This document shows, piece after piece, positions 1 through 63,000 of a DNA stretch of 64,000 nucleotides; the stretch's first letter is position 1; each line of letters begins with the position of its first letter. Position numbers: made by a program. This stretch comes from Rhina ancylostomus (Eukaryota), in NCBI GenBank assembly GCA_030265395.1, contig JARFYF010000068.1, positions 6,418,634 through 6,482,633 on the forward strand, given 5' to 3'.

Positions 1-3000
1 TCATTGTAGGCCGGTTATCTGTGCATAGTTACAAGCAGCGGAGGATTTAACGTTATTGTCTGATTCAGAGTTCTACTTCCTTATCATGAGATTTTAGGCT
101 GTTGCGATATGAACAAATATATCCCGACTAAGGGAGACCAGCGCCTGGCAGAAATCCTCGTTATCATTCAGTCGTTGGCCAGTCTTTCACGGTAATACTA
201 TGGACATGTCTGGGTCCTGTCTGCCGAGGACACAGTATCAATTAATGCTTTCCGCGTTTCTCTTTTCCTTTTCTCTTATTGTTATGTTTCATAACTGTTA
301 TGCAGTAGCAGCAAAGCCAGGATATTGATGGATGCCATACTATAACGACTTGTGCTTTCTCTGACCATTTATTGGTGTAGATGTGCTAGGTTAAAAGCTT
401 AAATATGCGCAGAAAAAGATAATATACGTTATTGGCCAAGACATCTTTCATACATTTCTTTCGCTGGCATTGATAAAAGATGAGATTTTTACCACATGGA
501 AAACAAAATGCAAGTAAAGAACTTACTGCTGTGTACTAAAAATTATACCAACTCAAGTCCTTTCATGTACCTATCAGACTGGAGGAAATTTAGTCGGGAT
601 GTTTAAGGAATAACTGTTTTACAACTAGCAATGTCAACTATCCGCACATCAGTTGAAGGTAAAAACTTCACTAGTTTTTAGGGAAGTGTTCAAAATATTA
701 GGTAATACCTTTGGGGTTGAGAGTCATAGGTTAATGGAGTAATGCATCATGGAAACAGGGCCTTCGGCTAACTCGGCCATGCTGACCATGGTGCCCACCA
801 AGCTAGTTCCATTTGTCCCGTTTGGCTCATACCCATCTGAAACCCTCCATTCCATGTACTTATCCAAGTGTCTTTTAAATGTTGTTATTGTTATTTTATT
901 AACTAAGTTAAACACTTTCTAATAGTAGGCAATGGTGCCTTGTGTTTTTGGTATCACGATAATTTATGGACGTGAGTTTTTATCCAGCTTCTGCCAGTAG
1001 AAGACGATTTTCCAAAACTTGGCATGAACTTCAGAGAGGGCAGAGTGGAGGCTGAAAGCGGCTGTTGAAAGCAAGTTGCCAAGTCAGTTGTTTGTTCGAA
1101 ATGTAATTTTCTCAATAAATATTTAAGTAGGTCCATCAATTTTTGCAATGTGAAAATAGTCAGCGCTGGACAAATCGAAGAAATGCTTTGCTCACCATAT
1201 TGGTCCCTAGCTACTCTCGCATCTAGAATTTGAAAAAAAAAGTATGCCGTCACCGCCTCGCCAATGGAAAGTCGGCAGAATAGGATGTAAATCAAAGCTA
1301 GCCATAGTGCCAAAATGCGTCCGGCAGTTTTACTTTGACAATCACGTCGAGGTTCATTAAATGTAACTTCGCAAGCTTGACTCAACTTGATCGGGCGCAT
1401 GGAATAGGGTGGAAACAGTAAGGGAAACAGGCCTGATTGGCTGCACTTCAGTTGCAATTAGGGTTGATGTGACCGAAGCACTGATATTAAAGTTGAAACT
1501 ACTAGATAGGTAAACAACGTAAATTATCCTTTTAAACCTGATGAAAAATGATTGAATGCAAGGACACAACATCATACGAAAATGAAACAGGAAAAGGGCA
1601 TTCAGATCCAGAGCTTTTCTGGCATTGAAGATAATGCTTCATCACCTTTACTTTCCTTCACTCGTGCACATTCCTTCCTTCTCTCAACAGCTAAAAATCC
1701 AACTCAACTTTCAATATAATGGGCGACCCAGCCCCCACGCAGGGCCTGGGTAGAGAACTCCAAATCATTATTGACTGGGTGAAGAAATCTCTCCTCTTCT
1801 GTCCCGAATGCTACTTCGAGAGTACTCCCTAGTTCCAGACACGCCAGGGAAGACGTCGACTCTGCAGCTACCTGGTAAACCACTTAAGAGTTATGTATGT
1901 TTCAGTAAGATCATTTCTCAGTTCTTCTGAACTCCATACAATAGGAATGCGGGAGGTAAGTTGCGGTTATATACAACGTTGGTGATGCTACACTTGCGTA
2001 CAACTTTGGTCGTCCTGTTACAGGAAAGGTGTTATTAAACTCGAACGAGTGTAGAAAAGATTTACCAGGATGTTGCCTGGAGTTGGGGTCTAAGTTTCAA
2101 GGATAGGTTGCGTAGAGTATATTCCCTAGAATGGAGGAGATTGAGGGATGACCTCATGGAGGTATAAAAGATAATGAGGGGCATAGCCAAGGTGAAATCA
2201 CATTGTCTTTTTCCCTTGGAGGGGTGCTAAAACAAAAGGGCATGTTTAATATCCGAGGTGAGAGGCTTAAAACGGACGTCAGGGGCAGCTTCTTCACGCA
2301 AAGGGTGGTGCGTATTTGGAGTGAGCTGCCAGAAATAGTGGTTGCGGCGGGCCATCTAGATAAGTATATGTATTGGAGATGCTGAGAGGGCCATAGGCCA
2401 AATGCGGGCAGATGGGACAAGCTTCCTGGACAACACAGTCGTCATGGACGAATTGGGTCGAAGGGCCTGTTTCCGTGCTGTTTGACTCTATGACTCTAAT
2501 ACTGGCCCATGCTGCTCAAATTACCTCATTTGATAGACTCGTCATCTGTTGAACTTTCTCTGCACTCTCTCCATCACAAATATGGGAATGAAGACAACTA
2601 TAATGCACATACGGTATCATCAGTCTGCTGTTTAATTTGGCAGAAACGTTTACATTTTAGCTTTGCTTCATAATGGCATTCAAAATAAGGAGCCAATCTA
2701 GGTGAAGACCAATGTCAAACAGAGCTGCCTAATTGTCAAACATTCTCCCTGCAATTTTTCACCAAATCTTCAACAAGCTTCCTAAAACAATTCTAATTCA
2801 TCTGTGAAACATAATTTTCATTTCATATATTACGCTGAATCTGTACAATCCTGCTATTAATTTCTAAGTATGTGACCAGAACATTCTTAATGACAGATTA
2901 TACGACTTCCGCCGTTGTTAACATCAGAATAATCGGTCTGCCGTTTCTGCCTTTTATGTCTTAAAAGTTGGCGCTGCAATTGCTGCCTTTCAATCTGTGA

Positions 3001-60000: not shown

Positions 60001-63000
60001 TGAAACATATGCTTTGTTTTCCTCTTTACAGAAGCAGCCCGATACCTGTGCTTCCAAAATTCTAGTTTAATATCTGATATTTTAAAGTATTGTACATGGC
60101 AGTATTATTGAAACATGGCAGTTAACAGTTAATCACTTCCCTGAAATAATGAAAGCATTTTAATGTAAAGGCTTTGAGCATTTTATCCAGATATCAGCTC
60201 GTTATTTAATGAAGAACATGTATGCCCTTTGGTATAATTGTGCAGGTTCATTGGATTGGCCATCGATTAGAGTTTGTTTTAACTAGCAATCTAACTGGTT
60301 CAATCCGACAGTGGAAATTATGAAAATTTTTCCTATTGGATGGCGAAGTTTTGATTTACGGTACACTCTTCTGGAATCCTTTGCGCCTCTGGAGGAGATT
60401 TTTTTCTATGAAACGATGTAATAAAAATAGTCCAAAGAACCTAACAGCAGGGCACTGCCCTTCATATATTTCTTACGGTAAGAACTAATGTTTGTAACAA
60501 CGTCCCAATTTAATTTTCTGCGCAATCCCACAGGTGCATACAATAATACGGGAGTCAGCCCCTGCAGGTAAACATATTGATCTTTGGTAACATGATATGC
60601 CCGTGTGCTAGTGGTACCAAGGTTTCCAAGACGTTTGTATCAAAGTCATTAGAACTGTACCTGTCGATTTCGAATCCGCTATGATTAAACAAAAGAGAAA
60701 AAAATTATAATCATGTACGTTGGGAAAAAATGTAACATATATTATTGATAAGTATAATTTCTTTAAGTTTTTTATTGTCGACAAGTATTTCCTTCTTGCC
60801 TTTGGCAGAAGGGAAACTGTTGTGTAAACTATATTGTATGTAGTTTGGAAACACCTAAAACGAATCTTTTCATCAACCATTCCCCATGGTAGTGTTTGCT
60901 TTTAAGACGCCGATGGAACTTGGAGACGCCTATCCTCATGGACCTTTCAAATTCCTGATCAAAAACAAAACATCTGGAATCTGGTGTCTAAATTGGGAAA
61001 ACCGATCCACAGATCAGTCAAGCAACAGAATCATATCTTCCAGTCATCATGCAGGCACGGTAATGTAGCGGTTAGCGTAACGCTATTACTGTGTCAGCGA
61101 CCCGGGTTCAATTCCGGAGTAAACTGTAAAACGTTTGTACCTTCTCCCCGTATCTGCGTGGGTTTCTTCCGGGTGATCTGGTTTCGTTGCACATTCCAAA
61201 GACGTACGGATTAGGAAATAGTGGCACAGAAAGCGTGGCGGGCTGCCCCCAGAATACTCTACGAAAAGATGCATTTCACTGCGTGTTTCGATGTACATGT
61301 GACTAATAAAGAGATCTTATATATCTGGTGTAACATATCTGGTTTACCAATCAGGAACAATCTTATACAGAGAGTACAGCTGATGAAGAAGTTGCGCATT
61401 CAAGAAGTGAAAACGCTTGCTGTAAAAAGGAGGCAGTTCCTTTCTAAAACAAATCTCACCACTTTCTTTAATCTTTGACTGCAGTGTGATAATTTCTAGA
61501 AGGAGAAGTAGTTTCCAACAATGGGTGTTAGCGTATATTAGTTATCTTTAAGGAGCTTATTTTTAAATATCCATGAAAAAGTACCCCACCACCATCTGAA
61601 TGTACGAAACTAGCAAAGCACATTAAAACATTCGGCCATACAAAATCCAAAGTTCTGCATTGAACACTTGAAATGTCTTCCAAATCATTGACAATTGTGA
61701 AGAAAATAATTCGTGGAAGAGCATTTTCAAAAACAAAATGGGTACGTCAAGGAGAAAATGCAAGTCAAGCCTTGATTGTGTTATTTTGAATTCAAAGCAG
61801 TCATTCCTTCAGTGATGCTTGTTATGTAATTGCAATGATTTACTTATTATCAGTATTAAACAGGGATAAAATATATAAAGTTACATTAATTTCACTGTCA
61901 TGTTACAAAGTTACTATGTTAGCCCAACACAGAAACAACAAAATAAACCTTCAAAATATATTTAAGGCCTTAATATCTCTGGAATGGAATCATAATGGCA
62001 GGTTTCTGAGTTTCCGAAGGACAAATGGAGACAAATTATTAATCTACTAAATGCAACTTTATAATGCTTTCTGAAGATTACTATCAATCACCTGGATGAA
62101 TCTTTCCCTTTTCAGTATATAATATGTTACTATTAAAATAGTTATAATGCTGGACTATTTACCTGCATTTTTTAACAAGATCTGTCGCACTGAAAGTCAA
62201 ATAACATTGACACATTAGTTCCGGAGGAATTTCAGTCGGAAAAAAAGAAATACATACATTTATGGAAATATCTGATATAACATGAGATTATTTAATCCTT
62301 CTTTAGAATATCACGAACGCAGCTAAAATCCATAATCATTGCACAGAAGTTTTTTAAAAATGTAAATAGAATTTTCCACAACTATTTTATTAGGCTGCTT
62401 GCCAGATTTTGAGGTGGTGATTCCTTGTAAAACAGAATATAATTATAAGAATTGTTATAATTTTATTGATCGTCATGGACAACATTACCTATAAAAATAA
62501 TAAATTAAGTTTGTGATGCTGTCACAATGTTGAGCAAAGGGGAAGCTCACAGAGAACCCAAATGTGGCACACTGGTACAGGACTGGAGTCATGATACTTC
62601 CTCAGGAACAAACACTGGCAGCAACTGGAAGGAATCTTGCCTCGGATATCTGAGTAGGAACACCAACACAAACTGAATCTTCAAACAGGAATAGAGAATT
62701 CAGGACTGCTCTAGAGTAGACCACTCTAAGCAGNNNNNNNNNNNNNNNNNNNNNNNNNNNNNNNNNNNNNNNNNNNNNNNNNNNNNNNNNNNNNNNNNNN
62801 NNNNNNNNNNNNNNNNNNNNNNNNNNNNNNNNNTGACCAATACTCTGGCAACCAGTGCTAGAGAAACCCAGGTACTTATGCTAGACACCTGTTGGTGCTC
62901 AAGTGTGTGTCATTATGACATCAATCCAGCATGGAATCCACGTGCTGTACAATGAGGCATCTGAGGAGCAAAATCAAGGGCCAATACTCAGAACCATGAC

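What the first reader, a model, noticed from the sequence alone, without database searches (positions are those of the whole stretch)
1196..62189. Family unresolved: very long butyrophilin/BG-like tail, or the stalk of a type II receptor
Established: butyrophilin-family genes (BTN, chicken BG) encode cytoplasmic heptads in runs of small phase-1 exons, with a 27-nt exon before the B30.2 exon in BTNs. Type II C-type lectins such as CD23 have exon-encoded coiled-coil stalks. Seen: no Ig, transmembrane, B30.2 or lectin exon in the window. There are 7 Cys, mostly at module ends (ECKK, ENCAT, QEC twice, NRCK, DASC, EKC), and two N-glycosylation sequons (N-L-T in exon 34, N|D-S across exons 15/16). 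The last exon, xARVARDQY, loosely recalls pre-B30.2 linkers. Inference: either assignment would mean an unusually long rod in a cartilaginous-fish receptor.
[Added by the scan's program, not by the reader: the finding's places include an assembly gap (unread letters, written N; its length is only estimated) at 6178 to 6277, 22174 to 22273, 25936 to 25999, 27818 to 27917, 31100 to 31334, 33202 to 33301. Whether the letters on both sides are continuous or in frame is not known: test that first.]
Basis: inference. Interest (0 to 1): 0.7.

Follow-up and report, generated by a model that had tools for sequence, protein, structure and literature searches.

The report
Long array of tiny coiled-coil exons
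One gene on the minus strand is built from about 46 very small exons that together encode a long, proline-free helical rod, an unusual gene structure best known from chicken BG genes, but the window does not show which protein family the rod belongs to.

Summary
From 62189 down to 1196 on the minus strand there are about 46 exons of 12-45 nt: 27 of 27 nt and 12 of 36 nt. All are phase 1-1 with AG/GT borders. A strict scan finds 35 such candidates on this strand and 0 in the same phase on the other strand. The exons encode about 442 residues with no Pro, 4 Gly and 48% charged residues. The heptad-like seam scores above shuffled controls. The basic unit is a 36-nt plus 27-nt exon pair, giving 21 residues or three heptads, and it occurs 11 times. 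Introns share no similarity, so the duplications are old. All 11 assembly gaps in the span lie in introns.

The family stays unresolved. No Ig, transmembrane, B30.2 or lectin exon lies in the window, and the gene runs off both ends. Exons of 4-15 residues are below every search tool's minimum. My leading reading is a BG/butyrophilin-like cytoplasmic tail (about 0.4). Its exon sizes differ from BG's 21 nt. The organism could not be verified.

The parts
62163..62189 (-). exon 1 of the model, 27 nt, phase 1-1
   Evidence: AG/GT read; table
61460..61495 (-). exon 2, 36 nt, phase 1-1 (36-nt class)
56384..56410 (-). exon 4, 27 nt
54693..54728 (-). exon 5, 36 nt
54589..54615 (-). exon 6, 27 nt; only a 77-nt intron before it and a weaker donor
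53224..53250 (-). exon 7, 27 nt
53048..53074 (-). exon 8, 27 nt, weak donor, less certain
46817..46843 (-). exon 9, 27 nt
46495..46530 (-). exon 10, 36 nt
45000..45026 (-). exon 11, 27 nt
42017..42043 (-). exon 12, 27 nt, His-containing class that recurs about every 16 kb
41347..41373 (-). exon 13, 27 nt
40509..40544 (-). exon 14, 36 nt
38796..38822 (-). exon 15, 27 nt; partner of exon 14 across a gap
38099..38134 (-). exon 16, 36 nt, doubtful (weak donor; no counterpart in the parallel module, exons 39-44)
33587..33622 (-). exon 19, 36 nt
33397..33423 (-). exon 20, 27 nt
32260..32286 (-). exon 21, 27 nt
31676..31696 (-). exon 22, 21 nt, ends in Cys
29988..30023 (-). exon 23, 36 nt
26951..26977 (-). 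exon 24, 27 nt; partner of exon 23 across a gap
26808..26834 (-). exon 25, 27 nt, His-containing class
23259..23285 (-). exon 27, 27 nt
22685..22720 (-). exon 28, 36 nt
20667..20693 (-). exon 29, 27 nt; partner of exon 28 across a gap
20296..20307 (-). exon 30, 12 nt, strong splice sites
19751..19786 (-). exon 31, 36 nt
17740..17766 (-). exon 32, 27 nt
17111..17146 (-). exon 33, 36 nt
14797..14823 (-). exon 34, 27 nt
13221..13247 (-). exon 36, 27 nt, doubtful (register break at its start)
10771..10797 (-). exon 38, 27 nt
10288..10314 (-). exon 39, 27 nt, His-containing class
6929..6955 (-). exon 40, 27 nt, parallels exon 13
5130..5165 (-). exon 41, 36 nt
4918..4944 (-). exon 42, 27 nt
4095..4121 (-). 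exon 43, 27 nt, ends in Cys
3696..3719 (-). exon 44, 24 nt
1646..1690 (-). exon 45, 45 nt, doubtful; departs from the repeat pattern
1196..1222 (-). exon 46, 27 nt, last in the window; its good donor means the gene goes on below position 1

Best explanation
Shown: the span 62189-1196 (minus strand, 60,994 nt) is an internal part of one protein-coding gene. It consists of about 46 tiny exons, all in phase 1-1, and it grew by old tandem duplications of exon groups.

Inferred: the exons encode a continuous alpha-helical rod of at least about 440 residues with a heptad-like hydrophobic seam. The likely form is a parallel coiled coil that pairs two chains and acts as a long spacer or docking surface. 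The basic unit is a 36-nt exon plus a 27-nt exon, which gives 21 residues or three heptads. These pairs alternate with pairs of 27 plus 21-27 nt. Every exon is symmetric in phase, so exons can be duplicated, lost or skipped without breaking the frame, and rod length is free to vary.

Family (inferred, not tested): the most likely setting is the cytoplasmic tail of a type I membrane protein of the butyrophilin/BG kind. In that case the Ig and transmembrane exons would lie above 64000. Either a B30.2 exon or the 3' end would lie below position 1.

The rod itself I hold at about 0.9. The BG/BTN-like setting I hold at about 0.4, and that is the confidence given here.
For: The exon table shows AG/GT at all 46 exons, a last base of G in 43 of 46 and a first dinucleotide of AA or AG in 30 of 46. 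The junction codon is Glu in 28 of 45.

Strand and phase control: 35 candidates in minus-strand phase 1, against 3, 0 and 2 on the plus strand.

Coding constraint among the 11 exons of the 36-nt class: nucleotide identity is 0.48 in the exon against 0.27 in both flanking intron stretches. The third codon position is the most variable, with entropy 1.5 against 1.1 and 1.0.

Composition of 442 residues: 0 Pro, 0 Trp, 4 Gly, 56 Leu and 48% D+E+K+R.

The heptad score is 71.7. With residues shuffled inside exons it is 47.3 +/- 5.4 (30 shuffles, maximum 58.4). With exon order shuffled it is 62.3 +/- 3.9 (maximum 68.7).

In the 11 pairs of 36+27 nt, position 1 is Glu in 10 of 11, position 5 is Leu in 10 of 11, position 16 is Leu in 8 of 11 and position 11 is D/E/N in 11 of 11.

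[quoted passage not shown] BTNs have a few heptad repeats before B30.2 (PMC4046983 and PMC8813856, passages). BTN genes are reported in four cartilaginous fishes, and the number of heptads varies among squamate BTNs (PMC12841164, passages). The 36-nt exons also end on a seam position: position 12 is A/I/V/L/C in 9 of 11.
Against: No Ig, TM or B30.2 exon lies in the window. No sequence comparison with any BTN or BG protein was possible.

Exon sizes are 27 and 36 nt, not 21 nt. Only 1 of 46 exons is 21 nt and 2 are 24 nt.

The seam is imperfect. My crude model puts 17 register breaks in 443 positions. In the 21-residue unit, the third predicted d position is K/Q/R in 11 of 11 pairs.

Exon order adds only a modest gain over shuffled order, about 2.4 sd.

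I defined the exon classes by peptide likeness, so the identity figures are partly circular.

The exon model rests on sequence alone, and three exons are doubtful. Leave-one-out scoring could not settle them.

My belief that long arrays of tiny heptad exons are otherwise rare in vertebrates is recall plus four unproductive literature searches. It is not a survey.
Confidence: 0.4

Rival explanations
1. The rod belongs to a protein that is not a membrane receptor. This could be a soluble, cytoskeletal or organelle-bound coiled-coil protein, or an undescribed family, whose helical part happens to be split into tiny symmetric exons.
For: Nothing in the window points to a membrane or to an immune domain. 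The composition is generic for coiled coils. The Cys and sequon counts are at chance level.
Against: From recall, ordinary coiled-coil genes have exons of about 80-200 nt in mixed phases. An array of about 46 exons of 12-45 nt, all in phase 1-1, is not typical of them. My four literature searches for such arrays returned only BG/BTN papers and one on troponin T mini-exons, seen as a listing only.
Confidence: 0.33
2. The rod is the extracellular stalk of a type II membrane receptor such as a CD23-like C-type lectin. TM exons would lie above 64000 and lectin-domain exons below position 1. The rod would then form trimers and hold the heads far from the membrane.
For: The 36+27 nt pair encodes 21 residues, or three heptads. 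From recall, this is the length of the repeated stalk exons of CD23. CD23 has a heptad stalk that mediates trimer formation (PMC6791321, passages). Four Cys sit at exon ends.
Against: No lectin-like motif or exon was found in the window. The two sequons are what chance gives (about 0.9 expected from the counts). From recall, known stalk arrays have 3-4 exons of 63 nt, not about 46 exons of 27 and 36 nt. The Cys share, 8 of 442, is ordinary.
Confidence: 0.12
3. The helix is a single, stable charged helix (an ER/K-type spacer) and not a paired coiled coil.
For: 48% of residues are charged, there is no Pro, the junction codon is Glu in 28 of 45, and there are 17 register breaks.
Against: Leu makes up 56 of 442 residues and sits at fixed positions of the unit: position 5 in 10 of 11 pairs and position 16 in 8 of 11. 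The seam score is well above the within-exon shuffles. From recall, single charged helices lack such a seam.
Confidence: 0.1
4. The small open frames are chance matches or dead exon relics and are not expressed.
For: No transcript evidence was available. Three exons are weak.
Against: The strand and phase control gives 35 against 0. All 9 matrix hits for the 36-nt class have AG/GT, with none on the other strand. Exon identity is 0.48-0.52 against 0.27-0.30 in introns, and there is a third-position excess. No stop codon occurs in any of the 46 exons.
Confidence: 0.03

Closest known systems
Chicken BG (B-G) cytoplasmic tails
   Same: Both have a long run of tiny exons (27-37 in BG, about 46 here), each starting with a split codon. 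Together the exons encode a heptad coiled-coil tail whose length varies with exon number (PMC5938342 and PMC4046983, passages). In both BG exons and the 36-nt exons here, the last codon sits on the seam.
   Different: BG exons are 21 nt (a few 18 or 24), one heptad each. Here the sizes are 27 and 36 nt, and the unit is a two-exon, 21-residue block. From recall, BG introns are very short, whereas here they are 77-6204 nt. The Ig-V and TM exons that define BG were not seen.
Butyrophilin (BTN/BTNL/ERMAP-type) juxtamembrane heptad exons
   Same: Small heptad exons lie between the TM and the next domain. BTN genes are reported in cartilaginous fishes, and heptad numbers vary between species (PMC12841164, passages).
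   Different: [quoted passage not shown] Here there are about 46 exons and no B30.2 exon within 1195 nt downstream.
CD23 (FCER2) stalk
   Same: A heptad coiled-coil stalk (PMC6791321, passages). From recall, its repeat unit is also 21 residues.
   Different: From recall, CD23 has 3-4 single exons of 63 nt. Here each unit is split into 36+27 nt and repeated 11 times, with other exon pairs in between. No lectin exons were seen.
Fast skeletal troponin T mini-exons
   Same: Very small symmetric exons that can be spliced in or out (PMC2447309, search listing and start of abstract only).
   Different: The listing's abstract gives five alternatively spliced exons (4-8). They are not a repeated heptad rod (recall).

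Membership tests
Chicken BG-type genes | Cytoplasmic tail encoded by many exons of 21 nt (a few of 18 or 24) | tested here: not met
   There are many exons (46), but the sizes are 27 nt (27 exons) and 36 nt (12 exons). Only one exon is 21 nt and two are 24 nt.
Chicken BG-type genes | First codon of each tail exon is split (phase 1) | tested here: met
   All 46 exons are open only as phase 1-1 units in the model. Strand and phase control.
Chicken BG-type genes | Heptad pattern with a hydrophobic seam | tested here: met
   Score 71.7 against 47.3 +/- 5.4 for shuffles. The seam is imperfect, with 17 register breaks.
Chicken BG-type genes | Signal, single Ig-V and TM exons upstream of the tail | not testable with these tools
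   None lies in 62190-64000. The gene continues beyond the window.
Butyrophilin (BTN) family | IgV-IgC-TM, then a few heptad repeats, then a B30.2 (PRY-SPRY) domain | tested here: inconclusive
   'A few' is not met, as there are 46 exons. No B30.2-like frame or motif lies in 1-1195, but the last exon has a donor, so the next exon lies outside the window.
Butyrophilin (BTN) family | Sequence similarity of the protein to BTN members | not tested
Exons of 4-15 residues are below the tools' minima.
CD23-like type II C-type lectin receptors | C-type lectin domain exons after the stalk | not testable with these tools
   No lectin-like motif was found in the six-frame translation of the window. The region downstream of position 1 was not available.
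CD23-like type II C-type lectin receptors | Stalk of repeated 21-residue heptad units, one exon each (recalled) | tested here: inconclusive
   A 21-residue unit is present 11 times, but it is split into two exons and interleaved with other exons.

The most novel reading that the evidence does not exclude
It would have a coiled-coil tail of at least 440 residues, longer than any chicken BG tail described in the papers read. It would be built from a different exon unit (36+27 nt, 21 residues), which points to an independent or much older expansion of the heptad exons. Very long BG-like tails would then not be a bird peculiarity.
Probability: 0.3. Interest if true: 0.6.

Novelty: new variant of a known kind. 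Interest (0 to 1): 0.4.

Why it matters
Long coiled-coil tails encoded one heptad per exon are described in the papers I read only for chicken BG genes. There the tail, not the Ig domain, seems to be the part under selection, and its function is still open (PMC5938342 and PMC8813856, passages).

A second, differently built exon array of this kind in a distant vertebrate would give a comparison. It would show which features recur: phase-1 symmetry, a Glu junction codon and a seam on the last codon. It would also show whether such tails go with B30.2 or replace it.

If the flanks instead show an ordinary coiled-coil protein, the locus is only a curiosity of gene structure.

Tried and rejected
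I then listed the stop-free segments instead.

2. Pfam on 6 stop-free ORFs gave only a sub-threshold DUF6590 match, 16.6 bits against a cut-off of 27.

4. I tried to get the taxon from transposon-like ORFs. Two searches found nothing. The third found two reverse-transcriptase proteins without names or taxon. I did not trace them.

5. Self-comparison of the window looked for recent duplications. It gave only 13 short repeat pairs of 76-244 nt, all outside exons.

6. A matrix search for missed 36-nt-class exons in the long introns found none.

7. Leave-one-out heptad scoring to settle the doubtful exons was not discriminating.

8. Short recalled motifs for Ig, B30.2 and lectin domains, plus a hydrophobic-run scan, gave three loose Ig-type hits in repeat-like or unrelated frames. 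The scan also hit one hydrophobic run that is just the pyrimidine tract before exon 12.

9. Rfam and the tRNA scan found nothing.

None showed a 27/36-nt heptad exon array or a long-tailed BTN in fishes. Supplements were closed, so BG exon tables in supplements were not seen.

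
Full report
**The window.** It is 64,000 bases at about 38% G+C and holds 12 runs of N. 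Eleven of these runs fall inside the finding's span. The finding lists six. The other five are 34387-34486, 39595-39909, 41585-41684, 42631-42813 and 44230-44767.

**The observation.**
- Reading four places shows exons of 24 or 27 nt with a pyrimidine tract and AG before them, GT after them, and a first codon split 1+2.
- Scans for AG|open phase-1 frame|GT, first strict and then relaxed, gave a chain of 46 exons from 62189-62163 to 1222-1196.
- The exon sizes are 27 nt (27 exons), 36 nt (12), 24 nt (2), 12 nt (2), and 21, 30 and 45 nt (one each), 1329 nt in all.
- Introns are 77-6204 nt.
- The last exon base is G in 43 of 46 exons, and the first two bases are AA or AG in 30 of 46. The junction codon is therefore Glu in 28 of 45.

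**Is it more than chance?** Under one fixed filter the minus strand in phase 1 gives 35 candidates, 26 of them 27 or 36 nt. The plus strand gives 3, 0 and 2 in its three phases, none of those sizes. The other two phases of the minus strand give 8 and 12, partly the same exons read out of frame.

A position matrix built from the 36-nt exons finds 9 places on the minus strand, all 9 with AG/GT, and none on the plus strand. That test is partly circular, since the matrix came from those exons.

Among the 11 exons of the 36-nt class, mean pairwise identity is 0.48 in the exon and 0.27 in both flanking intron stretches. The third codon position varies most, with entropy 1.5 against 1.1 and 1.0. The 27-nt class gives 0.52 against 0.30 and 0.28.

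The window compared with itself shows only 13 short repeat pairs, none over an exon. The exon groups were therefore duplicated long ago, and only the coding parts were kept alike.

**The gaps, as asked.**
- All 11 gaps in the span lie in introns, and the nearest exon is 95 nt away.
- Eleven of the 13 gap-bounded pieces carry exons, all on the same strand and in an order that fits the repeat pattern.
- Three 36|27 exon pairs straddle a gap and still pair correctly: exons 14|15, 23|24 and 28|29.
- All exons are phase 1-1, so the frame is the same on both sides of every gap whatever the gap hides. A small exon hidden in a gap cannot be excluded.
- Several gap edges abut copies of one repeat family (22274-22386, 39912-39995 and 62889-63001; also 44155-44229 with 62520-62595). 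That is the usual reason for such assembly breaks.

**What the exons encode.** The model gives 442 residues: 73 Glu, 66 Lys, 56 Leu and 42 Arg, with no Pro, no Trp and 4 Gly. Charged residues make up 48%. This is a continuous helix.

A simple heptad model scores 71.7. With residues shuffled within exons it scores 47.3 +/- 5.4 (30 shuffles, maximum 58.4). With exon order shuffled it scores 62.3 +/- 3.9 (maximum 68.7). The seam is real but imperfect, with 17 register breaks. The longest unbroken runs are in the 3' half, exons 30-35 and 36-43.

**The repeat unit.** A 36-nt exon followed by a 27-nt exon gives 21 residues, three heptads, and this pair occurs 11 times. In the 11 pairs:

| Position in unit | Residue | Share |
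|---|---|---|
| 1 | Glu | 10 of 11 |
| 4 | Lys | 7 of 11 |
| 5 | Leu | 10 of 11 |
| 11 | D/E/N | 11 of 11 |
| 16 | Leu | 8 of 11 |
| 19 (third predicted core position) | K/Q/R | 11 of 11 |

These pairs alternate with pairs of 27 plus 21-27 nt.

A 27-nt exon class containing His recurs at 42043, 26834 and 10314, about every 16 kb. Exons 12-18 and 39-44 run parallel in size and kind, except for exon 16, which I therefore doubt. After exon 44 the pattern ends, which fits a rod nearing its end. Exon 46 still has a good donor, so at least one more exon lies below position 1.

Four sit at the last codon of their exon. Both sequons are present. From the counts, about 0.9 sequons are expected by chance, so neither the sequons nor the Cys share (8 of 442) says anything about which side of a membrane the rod lies on.

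**What is missing.** No stop-free segment in 1-1195 or 62190-64000 looks like a domain. No phase-1 exon candidate lies outside 1196-62189. Short recalled motifs for Ig, B30.2 and lectin domains gave nothing usable.

**Homology.** The exons give 4-15 residues. No homology search of the gene product was therefore possible, and the joined step was left out. The family question is open for that reason.

**The organism.** Three searches with transposon-like ORFs gave no hit twice. The third gave two unnamed reverse-transcriptase proteins, 86% and 71% identity over 30% of the query, without taxon. 'Cartilaginous fish' stays unverified.

**Comparison with what is known.** Passages of PMC5938342 and PMC4046983 describe chicken BG tails. 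They have 27-37 exons of 21 nt (a few 18 or 24), a split first codon, hydrophobic residues at the fourth and last codon, and a presumed coiled coil whose length varies with exon number. BTNs have only a few heptads before B30.2 (PMC4046983; PMC8813856). BTN genes are reported in four cartilaginous fishes, and heptad number varies among squamate BTNs (PMC12841164). CD23 has a heptad stalk that forms trimers (PMC6791321). Its 63-nt repeated exons are my recall.

The array here works like a BG tail: tiny phase-1 exons, a seam on the last codon of the 36-nt exons, and modular length. It fails the 21-nt criterion, and its defining flanks are unseen. No paper in the searched library describes such an array in fishes or 27/36-nt heptad exons. 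Supplements were closed.

**Verdict.** The exon array and the rod are real (about 0.9). My estimates for the family are:
- BG/BTN-like tail: about 0.4
- a non-receptor coiled-coil protein: about 0.33
- a type II stalk: about 0.12

The gene architecture is unusual. Interest is moderate until the flanks are read.

Noticed in passing
window 34387-34486, 39595-39909, 41585-41684, 42631-42813, 44230-44767: Five further N runs lie inside the finding's span but are not in the list added by the scan's program. A sixth unlisted run, 62734-62833, lies just outside the span.
   Followed up: yes
window 22274-22386, 39912-39995, 62889-63001; also 44155-44229 with 62520-62595: Copies of the same short repeat families (77-93% identity) sit directly at gap edges. 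The assembly breaks therefore fall in dispersed repeats.
   Followed up: partly
window 43073-43486 (-): A stop-free frame whose end matches two reverse-transcriptase (PF00078) proteins, at 86% and 71% identity over 30% of the query. It is a decayed retroelement in the intron between exons 11 and 12, cut by the gap at 42631-42813.
   Followed up: partly
window 42061-42615, 30497-30939, 10469-10701, 28385-28483: Four intronic copies of one dispersed element at 68-87% identity, in both orientations. From recall they look like 3' tails of a LINE, but Pfam found nothing in the one ORF of these that I tested (30471-30743).
   Followed up: partly
window 8187-8621 (+) and 18303-18656 (-): ORFs that look transposon-derived from recall. 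Pfam found nothing and the protein searches found nothing.
   Followed up: yes
window 42109-42047 (-): A 21-residue hydrophobic frame just before exon 12. It is the translated pyrimidine tract of the acceptor and not a transmembrane exon.
   Followed up: partly
window 19063-19113, 37922-37960, 52302-52333: Three small tandem repeats with periods of 26, 17 and 16 and about two copies each, all intronic.
   Followed up: no
window 54693-54589, 26951-26834, 14797-14667: Very short introns of 77, 116 and 129 nt between some exon pairs, against kilobase introns elsewhere. In chicken BG, read-through of short in-frame introns adds motifs (PMC4046983, passages). I did not examine that here.
   Followed up: no
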